A stretch of 64,000 nt of DNA from Planctomycetia bacterium (lineage in GTDB: Bacteria > Planctomycetota > GCA-002687715). Positions within the stretch are counted from its first letter, which is position 1. Each line of letters starts with the position of its first letter. The stretch lies in NCBI GenBank assembly GCA_005790545.1, contig SXUL01000122.1:7249-71248 (forward strand), written 5' to 3'. Positions 38,373 through 51,035 of this stretch are shown here, piece after piece. Under the pieces are notes generated by a model. It made no database searches. It was not told the origin of the DNA and saw only the letters and a program-made list of their open reading frames with translations. Made by a program: the position numbers and the translations under genes.

Positions 38373-38453
38373 GCTCTATGGGTTGCGCGCCGACACAAGC
38401 GCGAAACGGAAGGCCATCTCGTTGGTTGAATGCCTGCCAGAAGGGAACCCGAC

Positions 38454-39962
38454 ATGCACCGCACCTTCACCCTCGTGCTCGCCAGTTGCTTCGCGCTCCT
38501 CAGCCTCTCGAACACCCTCTTTGCCCAGGCCGTCGTCTTCGATGCGGCTGCTGCGCGGCATCTCCTCGCCCGCACCACCTTCGGCCCGAGCGCCGCCGAA
38601 GTCGAGGCTGCCGTGGCCGCCGGATTGAACGCCAGCGTGGACAAGCTTCTGGCCGGTGCCACTGCACGCAAGCCGCGGAGCTTCGAAGTGAAGCCCATTC
38701 GCGTCGAGCGCGCCGCGCTGCGCGGGCTCTCCGAAGAAGAACGCCAGAAGAAGCAGAACGAAAACCGCCGCGAGGACCTGCAGCAGCTCCGCAGCTTCAC
38801 GGCCTGGTGGATGGAAGTCATGGTGGGTGGCGACGCGCCGCTGCGCGAGAAACTCGTCCTCTTCTGGCACGGTCACTTCACAAGCTCCATGCGCGACGTG
38901 CGCGATTCCAAGCGCATGATCGACCAGAATGAACTGCTCCGCGAGGAATGCGCTGGCTCGTTCCGCCGCATGCTGAAGGCCATCACCGTGGATGCCGCCA
39001 TGCTCGAGTATCTCGACAACGACGAGAACCGAGCCGGCAAGCCCAACGAGAACTACGCCCGCGAGGTCATGGAGCTGTTCACCCTCGGCGTCGGGAACTA
39101 CACAGAGAAAGACATCGCGGAGGCAGCGCGTGCCTTGACCGGCTGGCGCGTGCGTGGTGATGAGGTGTATCTCGACCGACGCCAGCAGGACCGCGGTGAA
39201 AAGACGGTGCTGGGCGTGACCGCACGCATCGACACCGATGAACTCCTGGAGATCCTGCTCGCTCGCCCCGAGGCCACCCGCTGGGTGGCCGCCCGCCTCG
39301 TGCGTTTCTTCGCCGGAGAGAACGCCGCCCCCGAGCTTGCCGCCAGCGTGGCTGCCGCGCTGCGCGAGAATGACTGGCAACTCGCGCCTGCTCTGCGCGT
39401 GCTCTTCACCCATCCGGGGTTCTATGCCAGGGAACTGCGTGGTCAGCGCGTTCTTTCGCCAGTGGAACTCGTGGCCTCTCTCACGCACCGAACCGGTGAT
39501 GTGGTCCCGCCGTTCCTGTTGGTGGCCGCCGCGTCGCGCATGGGTCAGACGCTCTTTGACCCGCCCGACGTACGCGGTTGGGGCGGCGGCGCCGACTGGA
39601 TCAATTCCGCCTCGCTCCTTGAGCGGCAGAACTGGTGCGGCCATCTCGTGGGCGGTGTGAATCCCCGCGACCTCAAAGGCGGGGGCGACGATCGCGCACT
39701 CCGTGAACTCGCACGCAGCGGCAACTGGACGCCAAAGAAGCCTCTGCTCACGCAAGAAGAACAGGCAGGGATCACCACGGAACGCGCCCTCGTGGACCAC
39801 CTCTGCCGACGCTTCCTCGAAGTTCAACCTCTGGAAGCGGTGCGTGCCACTCTCGCGGAACGCGTGAAGGCCGAGTTCGTCGGCGGGCGCTGCCCCGCTG
39901 ACAAGGTCGTGCGTGGCTTGCTGAAGCTCGTCTTGTCACTGCCTGAAGCCCAGATTCATTGA
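38454..39962 (+). CDS. DUF1800 family protein
   Basis: Signal peptide MHRTFTLVLASCFALLSL. Family motifs LFWHGHFTSS and NENYAREVMELFTLG. Paired with DUF1501 downstream. Confidence 0.75.
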   Translation: MHRTFTLVLASCFALLSLSNTLFAQAVVFDAAAARHLLARTTFGPSAAEVEAAVAAGLNASVDKLLAGATARKPRSFEVKPIRVERAALRGLSEEERQKKQNENRREDLQQLRSFTAWWMEVMVGGDAPLREKLVLFWHGHFTSSMRDVRDSKRMIDQNELLREECAGSFRRMLKAITVDAAMLEYLDNDENRAGKPNENYAREVMELFTLGVGNYTEKDIAEAARALTGWRVRGDEVYLDRRQQDRGEKTVLGVTARIDTDELLEILLARPEATRWVAARLVRFFAGENAAPELAASVAAALRENDWQLAPALRVLFTHPGFYARELRGQRVLSPVELVASLTHRTGDVVPPFLLVAAASRMGQTLFDPPDVRGWGGGADWINSASLLERQNWCGHLVGGVNPRDLKGGGDDRALRELARSGNWTPKKPLLTQEEQAGITTERALVDHLCRRFLEVQPLEAVRATLAERVKAEFVGGRCPADKVVRGLLKLVLSLPEAQIH

Positions 39963-39973
39963 GGAGAACCAAC

Positions 39974-41173
39974 ATGCTGCGCAGACACTTCCTCGGCACC
40001 ACGGCACTCGGTGCCGCGCTTCTCGGCCTTGGCCGCATCCCTGAAGGCCTGCTCGTCTCCCGTGCACAACGGAGCGGCGTCGAGCGCGCCCTCGTGGTGG
40101 TGCAACTCTCCGGCGGCAACGACGGTCTCAACACCGTCGTGCCCTTCGCGGACGACCTCTATCACGCCGCGCGGCCACGTCTCGGCAGCAAGCAAGCCGA
40201 CACACTCGCCCTCAATGAACATCTCGGTTTCCACAAGGCGCTGAAGAGTTTCCCCGCGCTGCACGCGAGCGGACAGCTCGCCACCATCCTCGGCATCGGC
40301 TACGCGAACCCGGTGCGTTCCCACTTCAGCAGCATGGACATCTGGCATGCCGCGGATGCACGCGGAAAACTCGCGGGCTCTGGCTGGCTCGGACGCCTCG
40401 CCGAAACCGGCTTCCCCGACGCGAAGGAACCGGAACTCATCGTGCATGTCGGCAATCGCGTGCCCTTCGCGCTGTCGAACAAGAAACATGCACCCGTTGC
40501 CTTCGCAGCGCCTGCAGGCTTCCGCTGGCGCGGCGGCAAGGAAGACCTCGCGGCCCTCGAGAAGGCGAGTGCCTCCGAGTGCATGGAGGACGCACCGACT
40601 TCCGTCGGGCATGTGCGCGGGACATTCCGCGATGCCGTCAAGGCCTCACGCAATGTCGAGAATGCTGTGCGCGAGTTCAAACCCGCAACGCCCTTCCCCG
40701 AGAACGGGCTCTCCGCCCATCTGCAGAGCGTGGCCGCCATGCTCACGGCGGGCTTCCCCACGCGCATCTACAGCCTTGAACTCGGAGGCTTCGACACCCA
40801 CAACCAGCAGCTCACGCGTCAGGCGCGCTGCCTCGATGAACTCGATGCCCTCGGTGCCTTCCAGGCGGAACTGAAGGCACGCAAGCTCGACGACAAGGTG
40901 CTCGTGCTCGTCTACTCCGAGTTCGGACGCCGCGTCGCGGAGAACGGATCGCAAGGCACCGACCACGGCGCAGCGGGTGTCGCTTTCCTCCTTGGCAGCA
41001 AGGTGAAGGGTGGCCTGCATGGAAGCATGCCCAGCCTGAAGGACCTCGAACGCGGGGACCTCCGTTTCACCACGGATTTCCGCACGCTGTACGCACCCAT
41101 CATCGCGCAGTGGTTCGGCATGCAAGCCGCACCCATCATCGGCGAGGTTGCAGAACCGCTCGCCGTGCTCTGA
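39974..41173 (+). CDS. DUF1501 family protein (Tat signal)
   Basis: Twin-arginine leader MLRRHFLGTTALGAALLGLG and a sulfatase-like fold motif GTDHGAAGVAFLLG. Confidence 0.8.
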   Translation: MLRRHFLGTTALGAALLGLGRIPEGLLVSRAQRSGVERALVVVQLSGGNDGLNTVVPFADDLYHAARPRLGSKQADTLALNEHLGFHKALKSFPALHASGQLATILGIGYANPVRSHFSSMDIWHAADARGKLAGSGWLGRLAETGFPDAKEPELIVHVGNRVPFALSNKKHAPVAFAAPAGFRWRGGKEDLAALEKASASECMEDAPTSVGHVRGTFRDAVKASRNVENAVREFKPATPFPENGLSAHLQSVAAMLTAGFPTRIYSLELGGFDTHNQQLTRQARCLDELDALGAFQAELKARKLDDKVLVLVYSEFGRRVAENGSQGTDHGAAGVAFLLGSKVKGGLHGSMPSLKDLERGDLRFTTDFRTLYAPIIAQWFGMQAAPIIGEVAEPLAVL

Positions 41174-44854: not shown

Positions 44855-45172
44855 TCACTTCTTGTCGAAGCTGGTGAGGCCGTAGCCCTTGCCCTTCAGG
44901 GCCTTCTCCACGTCCTCTTTGGTGAGGCTTCCGGACTTCATGGTGATCGTGGCCTTCTTCTCTTTGAAGTTCACTTCCACCTTGTCGACGTTGCTGAGCG
45001 CGCCCAAGGTCGCACGGACCTTGGTGGCACAGCTACCCGCTCAAGTCATGCCGGAAACGCCGACCACGTAAACCGGCGGATCATCAACGGTCGGCACCGT
45101 GACACCGGCCGCCGTGAGGGTCGATCCCATAAGGACCGCCATCAGGGCGAGCGAGAGGATTGCGAATCTCAT
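44855..45172 (-). CDS. periplasmic heavy-metal-associated (MerP/CopZ-like) domain protein with in-frame TGA at the first metal-binding Cys position (candidate selenoprotein)
   Basis: Signal peptide MRFAILSLALMAVLMGSTLTAAG. The first HMA strand VYVVGVSGMT is followed by TGA (45041-45043), then AGSCATKVRATLGALSNVDKVEVNFKEKKATITMKSGSLTKEDVEKALKGKGYGLTSFDKK in the same frame, giving a complete ferredoxin-like HMA fold. GGAGAA RBS upstream. The TGA lies where the GMTCxxC cysteine normally sits. A perfect hairpin follows 16 nt downstream. Confidence 0.55.
45004..45024 (-). promoter_or_regulatory. SECIS-like hairpin downstream of in-frame UGA
   Basis: Minus-strand RNA CCAAGGUC-CGUGC-GACCUUGG: perfect 8-bp stem with a GU-containing apical loop. 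It starts 16 nt after the UGA, the usual bacterial SECIS position. Confidence 0.4.
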
Positions 45173-47377: not shown

Positions 47378-49565
47378 AGTGCAGGGCGGATGGGCCGCGG
47401 AGCCCGTGGAGTTCGCCCGGATAGAGCATGGTGTCCACGTCCACGCCACGCTCGATGCAGGCCTTCACGAAGGTGAGCGACTGCTGCCAGACCACCGTGT
47501 CATCGGAGGTGCCGTGCACCACCATGAGCCGGCCTTTCAAGCCCGCCACGTGCGTGCGTGTGTTGCTGGTCGCATAACCCTCCGCATTCTCCGCTGGCGT
47601 GTCCATGTAGCGCTCGCCGTAGCCAGTTTCATAGAAAGCCCAGTCTGTGACCGGCGCGCCCGCGAGCGCGGATTTGTAGTGTTCCCCGGCGCGGCACGCG
47701 AGGGTCAGTGTCATGAACCCGCCGTAGCTCCAGCCTGTCACGCCCACCCGCTTGGCATCCGCACCCGTGCCATGCAGCACGCTTTGCAACACGACCAATT
47801 GGTCTTCCATTTCCGGAGTGCCGAGTTTTCTGTGCACGGCCTGCTGCCAGTCGATGCCACGGTTGGGTGTGCCGCGCCCATCCGCGAAGAACACCACGTG
47901 CCCTTCGCTGGCCATGGCCGTGAGCCAGAGATTCCAGCGTCCGCCACCGCAAAGCCACTGATCCGTCACGAGCTGGTTGTGCGGCCCGCCATAAACGTAG
48001 TGGATCACCGGAGCACCTTCGGCGCGCGCTTTCATGCCGGGCGGCAGCATCATCCAGCCGTGCAACGCGCGACCATCCGGAGTCTTCACCGTGAAGAGGG
48101 AATCCGTGCCGTGCTCGAAGGATGCCAGCGGATCCGGCGCGGTGTGCAGGCGCTTCACATCCTCCTTGCCGCCGAGATTCACGAGGTCCACAGCCTTCGG
48201 CAACTCAAGATTGGTGTGCGTGTCGAGCAGCCAGTTGTCATCGGCGGAGACTTCAGCCGTGTGATGCCCACGACCAGTGGTGAGCTGACGCTGCGTGCCT
48301 TCGAGCGTGCCGTGGAAGAGATGCTTCTCCAGGGGATTCACTCCTGTGGCAATGAAGCGAAATCCCTTGCCATCCGCATCGAAGCCGGTGAAGTCGCTGA
48401 GGTCGAAATCCCCGCGCGTGAGCTGCGCGAGTTCCTTGCCGCCCGCATCGAAGAGATGCACATGCCGGAATCCTGAGCGCACCGAGATCCAGAGAAAGCG
48501 CCCTTCCCCGTTCGGGACGAAGTACGGAGGCGCTTCAGGTTCGGTCCACTCAGCATCGTCCTCGGTCAGCACCACGCCCCGCAGCTTGCCGGTGTCCGCA
48601 CTCCATGCGCGCAACTCCGTGTGATTCTGCGCGCGGTTCACATGCGCGATCCAGAGCTCCGACGCATCCGGTGTGAAGGCGATGTTGGTGTGCCACTCAT
48701 CCGCCGCGGGATCGGTTTCGAGCCAGACTGTCTTCGCAGCCGCGAGATCGTGCACACCAACGCTCACCACGCTGCTCTTCCGACCTGCCATGGGATAACG
48801 ACCGGGAACAAGCTCCGCCGGAACCGGCGTGAGGTTCACGTACGGGTAGGCATCGACCGGAGTGAAGTCCTCGCGATAGAAGGCCACCTTCTTCCCGTCC
48901 GCGGAAAACCAGAGCCCGTCCTTGATGCCGAACTCCACGCGATGCACCGAGATGCCATGGGTGAGGTCTGCGTTGCCGCCTTCAGTCACTGCGCGCCCTT
49001 CCTCGCCGCGCTTCATGACCCAGACATTGAAGTCCTTCACGAAGGCTGCGGCAGAAAGATCGGCGTTGTAGATGGCATTGCTCGAACCATCAGGCAGCCG
49101 GAACAGTTGGTCCACCGCGAGACCCTTGGCGGGCTCCGCCGCGGTCGCCCCGCGCGGCGGATGCACGCGGAAGAGCGCAACCCCGGCATCGAGGAGCAGC
49201 GACGTGCCGGATTCCTCCCAGCGCAGCCCCGCGAGCATGGCGGGCGATCCGCGGAGCCCGAAGGTCGAGAGGGCCTCCGCCACTTCCTTGCCACTCAGGA
49301 CCCGCTGCGGGCTCGCTTCACCGGGTGCTGCACGAACGAGTTCGAAATCGCCCTCCGCCTGCCGCACAAACGAGAACGCGATTTTCTTGCCGCACCACTG
49401 CAAGCCCATCAGCCCTTGAGGATTGAAGGCGGCGGGGGTCTTCAGCCAACGTTCGAGGGTGAAGCGCTCGCGCGTTGCTGCATGAGTCTTCGCAACCGTT
49501 TCCTGGGCGGGGACAAGAACAGCGGCGAGGCCGAGAAGGCCTGCGATGACGGGAAGAATGCGCAT
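47337..49565 (-). CDS. S9 family serine peptidase (dipeptidyl-peptidase IV-like)
   Basis: Signal peptide, beta-propeller region and a C-terminal alpha/beta hydrolase domain with nucleophile motif GWSYGGFMT and catalytic Asp/His. Confidence 0.85.
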   Translation of the reverse strand: MRILPVIAGLLGLAAVLVPAQETVAKTHAATRERFTLERWLKTPAAFNPQGLMGLQWCGKKIAFSFVRQAEGDFELVRAAPGEASPQRVLSGKEVAEALSTFGLRGSPAMLAGLRWEESGTSLLLDAGVALFRVHPPRGATAAEPAKGLAVDQLFRLPDGSSNAIYNADLSAAAFVKDFNVWVMKRGEEGRAVTEGGNADLTHGISVHRVEFGIKDGLWFSADGKKVAFYREDFTPVDAYPYVNLTPVPAELVPGRYPMAGRKSSVVSVGVHDLAAAKTVWLETDPAADEWHTNIAFTPDASELWIAHVNRAQNHTELRAWSADTGKLRGVVLTEDDAEWTEPEAPPYFVPNGEGRFLWISVRSGFRHVHLFDAGGKELAQLTRGDFDLSDFTGFDADGKGFRFIATGVNPLEKHLFHGTLEGTQRQLTTGRGHHTAEVSADDNWLLDTHTNLELPKAVDLVNLGGKEDVKRLHTAPDPLASFEHGTDSLFTVKTPDGRALHGWMMLPPGMKARAEGAPVIHYVYGGPHNQLVTDQWLCGGGRWNLWLTAMASEGHVVFFADGRGTPNRGIDWQQAVHRKLGTPEMEDQLVVLQSVLHGTGADAKRVGVTGWSYGGFMTLTLACRAGEHYKSALAGAPVTDWAFYETGYGERYMDTPAENAEGYATSNTRTHVAGLKGRLMVVHGTSDDTVVWQQSLTFVKACIERGVDVDTMLYPGELHGLRGPSALHFMRKSRAWFQQTL

Positions 49566-49646
49566 GAAGTGGCTCCGTGGGTGCGCGCGGATTCTCCGCT
49601 AGGATTGGCTCCCCGGAAAGTCCCGGGGACAGCAATGGAGCCACCT

Positions 49647-50114
49647 ATGGCAATGATCGCGGCAGGCGCCAAGGCGCCAGAGTTCAAGTTGGACAGTCAC
49701 ATCGGCACGTCCGTCAGTCTGTCCGATTTCGCCGGCAAGAAGAACGTGATGCTCGTCTTCTATCCGCTGGCGTTCACCCCCACTTGAAGCGTCGAAATTC
49801 CCGGACTCGAAAAGCTGAAAGGCGATTTCGAGGCCGCGAACACCCAGGTCCTGGGTGTCAGCATCGACAGCAAGTTCGCCAACAAGGCGTGGGCTGATTC
49901 CATGGGTGGAATCACCTACCCGCTCCTCTCGGACTTCAATCCGAAGGGCGCCATGGCCGCTGCCTACGGCATCTACCTCGAGGCTCGCGGCATCACCGAC
50001 CGCGCCACCGTGCTCATCGGCAAGGATGGCAGCGTGAAGTGGTCCGAGTCCGTCGGCGTGCCGGGCAAGCGCGAGGCAAAGGATCTCCTCGCGCGCGCCC
50101 AAGACTGCCGCTGA
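49647..50114 (+). CDS. AhpC/Prx-family peroxiredoxin with in-frame TGA at the peroxidatic Cys position (candidate Sec-peroxiredoxin)
   Basis: MAMIAAGAKAPEFKLDSHIGTSVSLSDFAGKKNVMLVFYPLAFTPT-TGA(49785-49787)-SVEIPGLEKL...GGITYPLLSDFNPKG...LIGKDGSVKW. Aligns with AhpC FYPLDFTFVCPTEL, with U replacing the catalytic C. GGAG RBS 6 nt before the ATG at 49647. An alternative ATG lies at 49635. Confidence 0.7.
49803..49835 (+). promoter_or_regulatory. SECIS-like hairpin downstream of in-frame UGA
   Basis: GGACUCGAAA-AGCUGAAAGGCGA-UUUCGAGGCC: about 10-bp stem with one mismatch. Begins 15 nt after the UGA. Confidence 0.35.
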
Positions 50115-51035
50115 TCACTCGTTCACGATCACCGCGGGCGCCGGCAAGCACAAGCTTCCGGCGTCCGCGTTCATTTCCACTTCCGCACCCATGGGGAGAG
50201 TGAACTGCGCGCCCTCGTGGCCGAAGCGTGCGCCGGTCATGACCGGGATGCCGAGATCTCCGCAGCGTTCCGACACGATCTCCTCGTAGCTGAATTGCGG
50301 CCGCAGTGATTCGGGCGCCGTGCCGAAACTCCCCGCCACGATGCCCGCCACGCGCTGCAAGCGGCCGCTCAGCCGGAGTTGCGTGAGCATGTTGTCCACG
50401 CGGTAGGGCGCTTCCGAGACATCTTCGAGTGCGAGAATCGCTCCGTCGAATGAAGGCTCGAAGGGTGTGCCCAGCAGACGCACCAACACCGTGAGATTGC
50501 CACCCACGAGTGGCCCGCTCGCGCTGCCGCCGTGCACGCATCGACTGCGCTCGCCAGCGAGACTCAGGGCGCGCCGGTCGCGGCCCATGATGAGTTCGAA
50601 CAGCGCGTGCTCTTCGTCGCCCTCGCGACACTCTACAACGATGGGGCCGTGGAAGCTCACCAGCCCCGCATGGCGCTGAATCGCTGCATGCAGTGCTGTC
50701 GCATCGGAGTAACCGATGAAGGGCTTCGGATGCTCTGTGAGCGCAGCGAAGTCGAGCAACGGGAGCAGGCGGAGTGCGCCTGCACCGCCGCGAAGACACC
50801 AGATGGCACCGAGGTCCGGATCTGCGAAAGCGGCGTTGAGGTCCGCGGCGCGTGCTTCATCCCGACCGGCGAGGTGGCCGTGAGCCTCGCGCGCATGCGG
50901 CGAGAGCTCAGGACGGAATCCGAGCGCTGCGATGCGAGCGAGCGCTGCGTCCACCCGCTCCGGCGGATGGACTGGCGACGAAGGCGCGACCAGCGCGATG
51001 CGCGCTCCAGGTCGAAGAGCAGGCGGCCTCAGCAT
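50115..51035 (-). CDS. ldcA: LD-carboxypeptidase (S66 peptidase, LdcA-like)
   Basis: ARIALVAPSSPV N-terminus, nucleophile motif GYSDATAL, C-terminal His region. Trimmed to MLRPPALRPGARIALV. Confidence 0.8.
   Translation of the reverse strand: MLRPPALRPGARIALVAPSSPVHPPERVDAALARIAALGFRPELSPHAREAHGHLAGRDEARAADLNAAFADPDLGAIWCLRGGAGALRLLPLLDFAALTEHPKPFIGYSDATALHAAIQRHAGLVSFHGPIVVECREGDEEHALFELIMGRDRRALSLAGERSRCVHGGSASGPLVGGNLTVLVRLLGTPFEPSFDGAILALEDVSEAPYRVDNMLTQLRLSGRLQRVAGIVAGSFGTAPESLRPQFSYEEIVSERCGDLGIPVMTGARFGHEGAQFTLPMGAEVEMNADAGSLCLPAPAVIVNE

What the first reader, a model, noticed from the sequence alone, without database searches (positions are those of the whole stretch)
49647..50114. 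Peroxiredoxin (AhpC/Prx family) with TGA replacing the peroxidatic cysteine: candidate Sec-peroxiredoxin
The translation aligns along its full length to AhpC/Prx: FYPLAFTPT-TGA-SVEIPGLEKL against FYPLDFTFVCPTEL. The only break is a TGA (49785-49787) exactly at the catalytic Cp position. A stem-loop begins 15 nt downstream. Sec-containing peroxiredoxins are a recognised selenoprotein family, so this is most likely genuine. It also independently shows that the organism decodes UGA as Sec, which strengthens the HMA call 4.6 kb away.
Basis: partly seen in the sequence, partly recalled or inferred. Interest (0 to 1): 0.7.

Follow-up and report, generated by a model that had tools for sequence, protein, structure and literature searches.

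The report
Selenocysteine peroxiredoxin with two-hairpin signal
This is most likely a real gene for a small peroxide-destroying enzyme (peroxiredoxin) whose catalytic cysteine is replaced by selenocysteine encoded by an in-frame TGA; this is a known kind of selenoprotein, here from a branch that databases routinely split into two fragments and that carries an unusual pair of RNA hairpins after the TGA.

Summary
Window 49647-50114 (+) is a 155-codon AhpC/TSA peroxiredoxin gene with one in-frame TGA (49785-49787) at the peroxidatic position of the PxxxTxxC motif.

The selenocysteine (Sec) reading is strongly supported:
- All 55 distinct closest orthologs recovered (46-91% identity) carry TGA at this codon. 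Cys (TGC/TGT) appears only in relatives that tblastn places at 53% identity or below.
- Both sides of the TGA are under purifying selection (omega 0.04 upstream, 0.08 downstream).
- The window has no start codon between the TGA and codon 86.
- TGA is the ordinary stop codon of this genome.
- Two RNA hairpins follow the TGA only in the TGA forms.

A second gene 4.6 kb away (HMA domain, GMT-U-AGS-C) shows the same signature with a textbook bacterial SECIS. The Sec machinery (selA/B/C/D) is not in the window, so it could not be tested.

Sec peroxiredoxins with a TxxU motif are a known selenoprotein family, so this is a new member. It is AhpE-like, not PrxU.

The less ordinary part is the signal. 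The proximal hairpin often lacks the consensus loop G. A second, covarying hairpin with a GUN loop sits about 60 nt downstream. That second hairpin is nearly mutually exclusive with a canonical proximal SECIS in sister sequences.

The parts
49647..50114 (+). Coding sequence of the selenocysteine peroxiredoxin: 155 codons plus the terminal TGA at 50112-50114. Alternative in-frame ATGs lie at 49635 and 49653.
   Evidence: Translation. Pfam AhpC-TSA 1.3e-34 and Redoxin 7.9e-27. Orthologs L016-L020 begin MAI/MALIAAG, which matches a start at 49647.
49785..49787 (+). In-frame TGA, codon 47: the predicted selenocysteine at the peroxidatic position.
   Evidence: TGA in 55 of 55 distinct closest orthologs and TGC/TGT in 24 of 24 more distant homologs. 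The column aligns with the Cys of the Cys forms and with the peroxidatic Cys of M. tuberculosis AhpE.
49764..49787 (+). Active-site motif P40-L-A-F-T44-P-T-U47 (PxxxTxxU).
   Evidence: Sequence. The motif is named as the hallmark of Sec peroxiredoxins in PMC13188914 and as TXXU in PMC1088965.
50001..50003 (+). Codon for Arg119, the conserved catalytic arginine of peroxiredoxins (TDRAT).
   Evidence: Invariant column in alignment A1. Aligned with the Arg of AhpE in 'giaNRgt'.
49799..49839 (+). Hairpin H1, the proximal SECIS-like stem-loop. The main stem is 49806-49812 (CUCGAAA) paired with 49826-49832 (UUUCGAG). The apical loop is GAAA at 49817-49820, 29 nt after the UGA.
   Evidence: MFE -16.8 kcal/mol, z -2.1 for the 44-nt segment. 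Over 55 TGA forms the mean MFE is -18.5 (z -2.3), against -8.5 (z 0.0) for the 25 non-TGA sequences, which are 24 Cys forms plus the GGA variant L001. The Mann-Whitney test, run on the 24 Cys forms alone, gives p = 7e-12. The pairing register varies between subclades, so RNAalifold finds no consensus.
49840..49858 (+). Hairpin H2: ACACCCAG - GUC - CUGGGUGU, an 8-bp stem with a 3-nt GUN loop. It directly abuts H1, and its loop starts 60 nt after the UGA.
   Evidence: 91.7% of cells are paired over 53 sequences. Compensatory changes occur at columns 57:73 (CG 32, UA 11) and 63:67 (GC 31, AU 11). For the same QVLG peptide, TGA forms use ACC (36/42) and GGT (37/42), while Cys forms use GGC (15/19) and never GGT; pairs formed are 7.8 against 5.0 of 8. 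H2 is nearly mutually exclusive with a canonical proximal GGA-loop hairpin.
49637..49640 (+). GGAG, a possible ribosome-binding site 6 nt upstream of ATG 49647.
   Evidence: Read directly from the sequence. This is inference only.

Best explanation
The gene encodes a small (155 aa) AhpE-like, 1-Cys-type peroxiredoxin whose peroxidatic residue is selenocysteine, inserted co-translationally at UGA 49785-49787.

Shown here:
- The UGA sits at the catalytic position of an otherwise intact peroxiredoxin.
- It is conserved as UGA in every close ortholog recovered, and more distant relatives have Cys there.
- Both flanks evolve as coding sequence in one frame.
- RNA structure immediately downstream is specific to the UGA forms.

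Inferred: while the ribosome holds UGA in the A site, SelB carrying Sec-tRNA(Sec) is recruited by the downstream structure. That structure is H1 at the mRNA entrance plus the abutting hairpin H2, whose GUN loop resembles the GGUC loop of E. coli fdhF. Sec is then inserted instead of termination.

Inferred chemistry: the selenolate of U47, activated by T44 and R119, attacks H2O2 or an organic hydroperoxide and becomes a selenenic acid. A thiol then resolves it. No resolving Cys is conserved across the family. In sister clades the enzyme is fused to a CGFS glutaredoxin-like domain, and in one ortholog locus (L096) a stand-alone CGFS glutaredoxin gene follows it directly. The most likely reductant is therefore a glutaredoxin/low-molecular-weight-thiol system, possibly with help from the C-terminal Cys154.
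For: Observation and family:
- Single in-frame TGA in a full-length AhpC-TSA domain.
- PxxxTxxU motif and invariant Arg.
- Best solved relative is M. tuberculosis AhpE, E 7.6e-27 over residues 1-141.

Conservation of the TGA:
- 55 of 55 distinct closest orthologs have TGA; Cys codons appear only in more distant homologs.
- Database proteins of this clade are either truncated just after the TGA or translated with W at that position. P0003, one of the W forms, was checked at the DNA level and has TGA there.

Both halves are translated:
- dN/dS against L002 is 0.04 upstream (11 synonymous, 2 non-synonymous changes) and 0.08 downstream.
- No start codon lies between the TGA and ATG 49902.

TGA is the normal stop in this genome. 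Full-length Pfam matches (methylmalonyl-CoA mutase, carboxyl transferase, CorA) end at TGA-terminated ORFs.

RNA structure:
- H1 and H2 are more stable in TGA forms than in Cys forms (Mann-Whitney p = 7e-12 and 5e-9).
- H2 covaries, and its pairing is held by codon choice only in the TGA forms.

Second selenoprotein-like gene in the window: HMA with GMT-U-AGS-C and an 8-bp hairpin with loop CGUGC, 24 nt after its UGA. It is conserved in L002.

Reductant:
- C-terminal Grx/GST_N domain in the roughly 250-aa orthologs.
- Adjacent CGFS glutaredoxin gene in L096.

Literature: Prx with TxxU (pfam00578) is an established prokaryotic selenoprotein family (PMC1088965, PMC2398784, PMC13188914, PMC5029168).
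Against: - No selA, selB, selD or tRNA-Sec was found in the 64 kb window. No tRNA-Sec was found in 60 related loci. The called genes around four ortholog loci list no sel-gene Pfam families. The decoding machinery of this organism is therefore unverified.
- H1 of the window does not strictly satisfy the published bacterial SECIS model. Its upper stem has only 3 contiguous pairs before a bulge.
- Taken alone, the 66-nt fold is unremarkable (z -0.8).
- One close ortholog (L001, a Planctomycetota MAG) has GGA (Gly) at this codon, so the position can be lost.
- There is no experimental evidence of Sec incorporation, activity or reductant. No glutaredoxin homolog lies in the window.
Confidence: 0.9

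Rival explanations
1. The gene is a pseudogene: an AhpC/Prx gene inactivated by a nonsense mutation at the catalytic codon.
For: A single TGA interrupts the frame. One ortholog has a different non-Cys codon, GGA, at the same site. Annotation pipelines treat the gene as fragments.
Against: The same TGA is present in 55 of 55 distinct orthologs down to 46% protein identity, and none has a further stop or a frameshift. Both halves show strong purifying selection (omega 0.04 and 0.08). RNA hairpins are maintained by codon choice only in the TGA forms.
Confidence: 0.02
2. There are two separate products: translation ends at the TGA, giving a 46-aa peptide, and an independent downstream gene encodes the C-terminal part, as gene callers annotate it.
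For: Gene callers predict 44-50 aa plus 99-108 aa ORFs in orthologs, where a GTG or ATG happens to follow the TGA.
Against: In the window the codons after the TGA are AGC GTC GAA, and the first in-frame start is ATG 49902, 39 codons downstream. Yet residues 48-85 (SVEIPGLEKL...VLGVSIDSKF) are conserved. Neither fragment alone contains a complete peroxiredoxin fold or active site: T44 and U47 are upstream and R119 is downstream. The frame is always continuous across the TGA.
Confidence: 0.02
3. The UGA is decoded, but not as selenocysteine. Possibilities are an alternative genetic code (UGA = Trp or Gly), near-cognate read-through, or Cys insertion.
For: Some databases translate orthologs with W at this position (P0003-P0007). 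The Sec machinery was not found in the sequence available.
Against: TGA terminates the well-matched genes of this window, so the code is standard. A Trp or Gly at the peroxidatic position would kill the enzyme. The position aligns with Cys in homologs, which is the standard Cys/Sec signature. UGA-specific downstream hairpins are what Sec recoding requires. A second gene in the window has UGA at a metal-binding Cys with a canonical SECIS.
Confidence: 0.05

Closest known systems
Sec-containing peroxiredoxin family (Prx, TxxU motif, pfam00578) of Zhang, Gladyshev and colleagues. The prototype is PrxU of Eubacterium acidaminophilum (Sohling et al. 2001, cited in PMC13188914).
   Same: An AhpC/TSA domain, with Sec replacing the peroxidatic Cys in PxxxTxxU, and a SECIS-like structure directly after the UGA inside the coding region. 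It is one of the more abundant selenoprotein families in marine metagenomes: 43 genes in the Sargasso Sea, 253 in GOS, and 91 genes in 78 sequenced bacteria.
   Different: It is not the PrxU equivalog (81 bits against a cut-off of 270). PrxU's model is 233 positions long; this protein is a 155-aa AhpE-like enzyme. No NCBIfam model reaches its cut-off, and public records hold it as fragments.
AhpE (Rv2238c) of Mycobacterium tuberculosis, a 1-Cys peroxiredoxin (PDB 1xvw, 1xxu, 4x0x, 5id2).
   Same: Best-scoring solved relative (E 7.6e-27, aligned over residues 1-141). The two proteins have the same length class, and the FxPLAFTxxC, PLLSDF and Arg motifs line up. Some Cys homologs are labelled 'mycoredoxin-dependent peroxiredoxin' by their source.
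   Different: AhpE has Cys where this protein has Sec. From memory, AhpE is recycled by mycoredoxin-1/mycothiol. Here the fused or neighbouring partner is a CGFS glutaredoxin-like domain.
Peroxiredoxin-glutaredoxin hybrid enzymes (for example Haemophilus influenzae PGdx; recalled from memory, not checked here).
   Same: Sister orthologs of about 250 aa carry a C-terminal Grx/GST_N domain after the Prx domain. This implies glutaredoxin-type recycling.
   Different: The window protein is the stand-alone form. From memory, the known hybrids are Prx5-type Cys enzymes, not AhpE-like Sec enzymes.
E. coli fdhF SECIS and the consensus bacterial SECIS model (loop of 3-9 nt with G in its first two positions, 4-16 bp stem, 16-37 nt after the UGA, MFE at most -7.5; PMC13188914).
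   Same: H1 lies at the right distance (loop 29 nt after the UGA), has a G-first loop and has MFE -16.8. H2 has an 8-bp stem and a GUN loop in the context CAG-GUC-CUG, which resembles the GCA-GGUC-UGC apex of fdhF. The fdhF sequence was verified in 5419 of 5426 E. coli genomes.
   Different: H1 of most family members lacks the loop G, and 32 of 55 fail the strict model. H2 meets every criterion except spacing: 60 nt instead of 16-37. No Rfam family matches.

Membership tests
Peroxiredoxin superfamily (AhpC/TSA, PF00578) | Domain match above Pfam's gathering score | tested here: met
   119.3 bits against a cut-off of 26, covering profile positions 2-123 of 124.
Peroxiredoxin superfamily (AhpC/TSA, PF00578) | PxxxTxxC(U) active-site motif plus the conserved catalytic Arg | tested here: met
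   P40, T44 and U47 are present. R119 is invariant in A1 and aligned with the Arg of AhpE.
Sec-containing Prx selenoprotein family (TxxU) | In-frame UGA aligned with the peroxidatic Cys of Cys-containing homologs | tested here: met
Sec-containing Prx selenoprotein family (TxxU) | UGA conserved among orthologs, with coding conservation on both sides | tested here: met
   55 of 55 orthologs carry TGA. Omega is 0.04 upstream and 0.08 downstream.
Sec-containing Prx selenoprotein family (TxxU) | Bacterial SECIS that fits the consensus model: loop 3-9 nt with G in its first two positions, stem 4-16 bp, spacing 16-37 nt, MFE at most -7.5 | tested here: inconclusive
   Window H1 has loop GAAA, spacing 29 and MFE -16.8, but only 3 contiguous upper-stem pairs before a bulge, so it fails the strict version. 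H2 passes every criterion except spacing, which is 60 nt. The structure is nevertheless specific to the UGA forms.
Sec-containing Prx selenoprotein family (TxxU) | Host genome encodes selA, selB, selC (tRNA-Sec) and selD | not testable with these tools
   None of these lie in the window. No tRNA-Sec was found in 60 related loci.
Sec-containing Prx selenoprotein family (TxxU) | Selenium actually incorporated (75Se labelling or mass spectrometry) | not testable with these tools
   This requires an experiment.
PrxU (NCBIfam NF040737, equivalog) | Score at or above the curated cut-off of 270 bits | tested here: not met
   81.2 bits.
AhpE subfamily of peroxiredoxins | Closest sequence similarity is to AhpE rather than to the Prx1/AhpC, BCP/PrxQ, Tpx, Prx5 or Prx6 types | tested here: met
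   The top seven PDB sequences are AhpE (six M. tuberculosis Rv2238c/MT2298 entries plus 4xih, deposited only as 'AhpC/TSA family protein'), at 93-97 bits. The next hit, a Prx1-type enzyme, scores 78 bits.
AhpE subfamily of peroxiredoxins | 1-Cys type: no conserved resolving Cys | tested here: inconclusive
   No Cys column is conserved across all TGA forms. A C-terminal Cys (LLAEC) is present in 38 of 58 TGA forms. The window has instead Cys154, three residues later.
Prx-like UxxC selenoproteins (Prx-like 1-3) and Prx-SUH (CxxU) | UxxC or CxxU redox motif | tested here: not met
   The motif here is TxxU followed by SVEI, with no Cys within 3 residues. Prx-SUH NF045827 scores 25 bits against a cut-off of 298.

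The most novel reading that the evidence does not exclude
The Sec-insertion signal of this peroxiredoxin clade may be a distinct, bipartite class of bacterial SECIS. In this reading the element that carries the SelB-type G-U apical loop is hairpin H2, whose loop starts 60 nt after the UGA. The intervening hairpin H1, which is variable in sequence and often lacks the loop G, acts as a folded spacer that brings H2 to the ribosome's mRNA entrance.

Supporting observations:
- H2 covaries.
- H2 is maintained by codon choice only in the UGA forms.
- H2 decays in nearly all sister sequences that have acquired a canonical proximal GGA-loop hairpin 19-20 nt after the UGA. The 2x2 table is [[3,42],[9,1]], Fisher p = 3e-7, not corrected for phylogeny.

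The evidence equally allows H2 to be only a stabiliser or insulator of H1.
Probability: 0.3. Interest if true: 0.6.

Novelty: new member of a known kind. Interest (0 to 1): 0.35.

Why it matters
The practical consequence is annotation. This AhpE-like Sec peroxiredoxin clade is widespread in soil, sediment and marine metagenomes and in MAGs labelled Planctomycetota, Pseudomonadota and Deltaproteobacteria. Public databases hold it as 44-50 aa and 99-108 aa fragments, or with W at the active site. No NCBIfam model captures it.

For this genome, two UGA-at-Cys genes 4.6 kb apart make selenocysteine use very likely.

Mechanistically, the family offers a natural comparison between a canonical proximal SECIS and a two-hairpin arrangement within one protein family. 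That comparison could be used to test how far from the UGA a bacterial SelB-binding loop can sit.

The fused or adjacent CGFS glutaredoxin gives a testable hypothesis for the reductant of a 1-Sec peroxiredoxin.

Tried and rejected
- The genome-contig scan with the single protein returned only 8 distant Cys homologs (27-47% identity) and not the source genome.
- RNAalifold on the ungapped 53-sequence alignment gave no consensus structure. The H1 pairing register shifts by 1-6 nt between subclades. I relied instead on per-sequence MFE and z-scores, the Sec-versus-Cys contrast, and explicit pair counts.
- Rfam returned nothing at gathering thresholds apart from tRNAs and SRP RNA. A permissive scan of 49700-49950 gave one noise hit.
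- No tRNA-Sec was found in the window or in 60 loci. Twenty large ORFs of the window scanned with Pfam gave no SelA, SelB or SelD.
- An exact look-up of the window's SHMT protein, meant to identify the source assembly, found it not on record.
No 3D model was made.
- The promoter and terminator scan of 49450-50250 found nothing.
- A window-wide scan for other TGA-interrupted coding frames gave only the Prx and HMA sites with a redox-type context. The other hits look like antisense-frame noise.
- tblastn of the partner glutaredoxin against the window found no homolog.
- Rejected readings: pseudogene, split genes and alternative genetic code. See the rival explanations.
Full report
**1. The observation**

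Window 49647-50114 (+) translates as a 155-codon frame with one internal stop: MAMIAAGAKAPEFKLDSHIGTSVSLSDFAGKKNVMLVFYPLAFTPT*SVEIPGLEKLKGDFEAANTQVLGVSIDSKF...LLARAQDCR*. The internal stop is TGA at 49785-49787 (codon 47).

With C substituted for the stop, Pfam gives AhpC-TSA (E 1.3e-34, 119 bits against a cut-off of 26, profile 2-123 of 124) and Redoxin (E 7.9e-27). The TGA is the last residue of P40-x3-T44-x2-U47, the peroxidatic position of the universal peroxiredoxin motif. The catalytic Arg (R119) is present and invariant among relatives.

**2. A recoded codon, a lesion or a gene boundary?**

A protein search showed that the closest database entries fall into two groups. Some are 99-109 aa and start just after the TGA. 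Others are full-length with W or G at that column. DNA of P0003, one of the W forms, shows TGA at that column.

A metagenome scan with an alignment returned 80 loci. Reading the codon in each gave this picture:
- All 55 distinct sequences closest to the window have TGA (46-91% identity by tblastn). This includes four near-identical syntenic contigs, L002-L005.
- TGC or TGT appears in 24 more distant relatives, which tblastn places at 44-50% identity. One Cys locus outside the 24 that were counted, L093, is also at 50%.
- None of the TGA forms has a second stop or a frameshift.

Against the 90%-identical ortholog L002, codons 1-46 differ by 11 synonymous and 2 non-synonymous changes (omega 0.04). 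Codons 48-155 differ by 35 and 13 (omega 0.08). Five more distant orthologs give omega 0.09-0.43 on both sides.

In the window, the codons after the TGA are AGC GTC GAA. The first in-frame start codon is ATG 49902, 39 codons downstream. Yet residues 48-85 are among the best conserved.

TGA is also the normal terminator in this 65% G+C genome. ORFs with end-to-end Pfam matches (methylmalonyl-CoA mutase, carboxyl transferase, CorA) stop at TGA.

Pseudogene, split-gene and alternative-code readings are therefore rejected.

**3. RNA downstream of the UGA**

Two hairpins recur in the TGA forms.

*H1* (window 49799-49839) has a 7-bp main stem, CUCGAAA/UUUCGAG, and a GAAA apical loop 29 nt after the UGA.
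- Its sequence and pairing register differ between subclades. RNAalifold on the codon-registered alignment therefore finds no consensus, and only 59% of cells pair in the window's register.
- Every subclade nevertheless has a stable hairpin there. Mean MFE of the 44-nt segment is -18.5 kcal/mol (mean z -2.3) in 55 TGA forms. It is -8.5 (z 0.0) in the 25 non-TGA sequences, which are 24 Cys forms plus the GGA variant L001. The Mann-Whitney test on the 24 Cys forms alone gives p = 7e-12.

*H2* (49840-49858, ACACCCAG-GUC-CUGGGUGU) abuts H1.
- It is paired in 91.7% of cells over 53 sequences. Compensatory changes occur at two positions: 57:73 (CG 32, UA 11) and 63:67 (GC 31, AU 11). Slid-register controls drop to 29-46% paired.
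- H2 lies in codons for (D/N)TQVLGV. Cys-form homologs that encode the same QVLG peptide do not form it (5.0 against 7.8 of 8 pairs). They use GCG/ACG and GGC where the TGA forms use ACC (36/42) and GGT (37/42). H2 is thus an RNA-level constraint tied to the UGA.

**4. Fit to the published bacterial SECIS model**

The model requires a 3-9 nt loop with G in its first two positions, a 4-16 bp upper stem, 16-37 nt between the UGA and the loop, and MFE at most -7.5 (PMC13188914).
- Applied strictly, only 22 of 55 TGA forms have a passing hairpin.
- The window's H1 has the G-first loop, the spacing and the energy, but only 3 contiguous upper pairs.
- H2 passes every criterion except spacing, which is 60 nt.

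Its apex, CAG-GUC-CUG, resembles the GCA-GGUC-UGC apex of E. coli fdhF. I checked my recalled fdhF sequence and it matched at 100% in 5419 of 5426 E. coli genomes.

Eleven sequences, mostly among the Grx-fusion forms, instead carry a short canonical hairpin with a UGGAU or GGA loop 19-20 nt after the UGA, and in them H2 has decayed to 3-6 pairs.

An automatic classification, which called 10 sequences as having that proximal hairpin, gives these counts:

| | H2 absent | H2 present |
|---|---|---|
| No proximal GGA-loop hairpin | 3 | 42 |
| Proximal GGA-loop hairpin | 9 | 1 |

Fisher p = 3e-7, not corrected for shared ancestry.

This suggests, but does not prove, that H2 takes part in Sec decoding where the proximal hairpin is non-canonical. 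No Rfam family covers the region.

**5. Does the organism use Sec?**

The window holds no tRNA-Sec, and none of 20 large ORFs is SelA, SelB or SelD. Sixty related loci have no tRNA-Sec. The machinery is therefore untested.

It encodes a signal-peptide-bearing HMA-domain protein (Pfam HMA 1.2e-12) with TGA 45041-45043 at the first Cys of GMTCxxC, reading VVGVSGMT-U-AGSC. An 8-bp hairpin follows, CCAAGGUC-CGUGC-GACCUUGG, 24 nt after the UGA. It meets all consensus SECIS criteria. The same TGA is present in ortholog L002.

A window-wide scan for other interrupted coding frames found only these two sites with a redox or metal-binding context.

**6. What kind of peroxiredoxin, and how it probably works**

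- NCBIfam's PrxU model scores 81 bits against a cut-off of 270, and no other model passes.
- The best solved relatives are the AhpE entries, led by M. tuberculosis Rv2238c (E 7.6e-27, residues 1-141). These are 1-Cys enzymes. Prx1-type proteins come next at about 78 bits.
- No resolving Cys is conserved. A C-terminal Cys (LLAEC) occurs in 38 of 58 TGA forms and in 0 of 24 Cys forms. The window has Cys154 three residues further on, and its nearest sister group (L016-L020) has none.
- About half of the TGA forms are roughly 250 aa long. Three of them were scanned with Pfam, and each carries a C-terminal glutaredoxin/GST_N domain after the Prx domain. The longer forms as a group share the active-site motif CGFS or a close variant.
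- In L096 (a 280 kb contig) a stand-alone 79-aa CGFS glutaredoxin gene starts 11 nt after the Sec-Prx gene.

By fusion and neighbourhood logic, the likely cycle is as follows. The U47 selenolate, activated by T44 and R119, reduces the peroxide and becomes a selenenic acid. This is resolved to a selenenylsulfide by a glutaredoxin-type thiol or a low-molecular-weight thiol, and is then reduced. These chemical steps are inference from peroxiredoxin enzymology, and none was tested. The window itself has no glutaredoxin homolog.

**7. Comparison with what is known, and novelty**

Sec peroxiredoxins with a TxxU motif are an established prokaryotic selenoprotein family:
- 43 genes in the Sargasso Sea (PMC1088965);
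- 253 in GOS (PMC2398784);
- 91 genes in 78 sequenced bacteria (PMC5029168);
- listed with PF00578/TxxU and the 2001 Eubacterium acidaminophilum enzyme in a 2026 review (PMC13188914).

The finding is therefore a new member of a known kind.

Four things are less ordinary:
(a) the AhpE-like lineage, for which a full-text search on 'AhpE', 'selenocysteine' and 'peroxiredoxin' listed no paper whose title or abstract points to a Sec form;
(b) systematic mis-annotation as fragments, for example MCP4196554.1 (44 aa), MFT5200419.1 (99 aa) and MBM4261086.1 (107 aa);
(c) the covarying second hairpin and its inverse relation to a canonical SECIS;
(d) the Sec-Prx-Grx fusions.

**8. Verdict**

- Confidence that this is a genuine Sec-encoding peroxiredoxin gene: about 0.9.
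- Interest is modest at 0.35, because the family is known.
- The most novel reading not excluded is a bipartite, distal-loop class of bacterial SECIS: probability about 0.3, interest if true about 0.6.

Noticed in passing
window 44855-45172 (-); TGA at 45041-45043; hairpin at 45004-45024: A second candidate selenoprotein: a signal-peptide-bearing HMA-domain protein (CopZ/MerP-like, Pfam HMA 1.2e-12) with UGA at the first Cys of GMTCxxC, reading GMT-U-AGS-C. It is followed by an 8-bp hairpin with loop CGUGC, 24 nt after the UGA, which meets the consensus bacterial SECIS model. The same TGA is present in ortholog L002. No NCBIfam model reaches its cut-off; the UxxU metal-binding selenoprotein model NF041115 scores 37 bits against a cut-off of 95.
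   Followed up: partly
L001 10133-10135 (GCA_041398665.1, Planctomycetota MAG, contig JAWKUH010000009.1): The closest full-length database homolog (P0001, 68% identity) has GGA (Gly) instead of TGA at the catalytic codon, yet keeps both hairpins intact (H1 -22.7 kcal/mol, H2 8 of 8 pairs). This could be a very recent inactivating change, a population variant or an assembly error.
   Followed up: partly
L035, L037, L040, L042, L044, L046-L058, L061-L064, L066, L068 (orthologs of about 250 aa); L096 10335-10574: About half of the TGA forms are longer than the window's protein. Three of them (L047, L042, L068), scanned with Pfam, have a C-terminal glutaredoxin/GST_N domain. The longer forms as a group share the motif CGFS, CMFS or CRFC at the matching position. 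In L096 a separate 79-aa CGFS glutaredoxin gene starts 11 nt after the Sec-Prx gene, and another 167-aa AhpC/TSA gene lies just upstream.
   Followed up: partly
Database proteins P0002, P0026, P0029, P0040, P0058, P0090 and P0121-P0129, among others: Public gene calls split this family into N-terminal fragments of 44-50 aa and C-terminal fragments of 99-109 aa, or translate the TGA as W. The records come from MAGs labelled Planctomycetota, Pseudomonadota and Deltaproteobacteria.
   Followed up: partly
L067, L071, L074 (FYPAAFTPV-U-TAQMPSYE): A second, small group of TGA forms clusters next to 1-Cys Cys forms (L069, L077, L083, L084; FYPLAFSPVCSAQIPSYQ) rather than with the main Sec clade. It still has both H1 and H2, with a compensatory G:C at columns 58:72 in L071. 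This could be an independent Cys/Sec switch or an old Sec lineage.
   Followed up: no
window 49788-49790 and the equivalent codon in 55 orthologs: The base after the UGA is always A. Ser following Sec is encoded only by AGC or AGT (48 of 48), never by TCN. In the Cys forms, 3 of 8 Ser codons at this position are TCG. This may be a context constraint on UGA recoding.
   Followed up: no
window 49635, 49647, 49653: Three in-frame ATGs could start the gene (MEPPMAMIAAG...). Orthologs L016-L020 start at the equivalent of 49647, and GGAG at 49637-49640 fits that start. The gene caller used the equivalent of 49635 in L002.
   Followed up: partly
window 49792-49799 with 49824-49831: On the 78-nt fold, the 3' arm of H1 can pair instead with UCGAAAUU, which lies only 5-12 nt after the UGA. 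That alternative helix would be inside the ribosome when the UGA is in the A site.
   Followed up: no
window 38430-41173 (+): An adjacent DUF1800/DUF1501 gene pair. From memory, this pair is typical of Planctomycetota and Verrucomicrobiota, which fits the taxon labels of the nearest named homologs.
   Followed up: no
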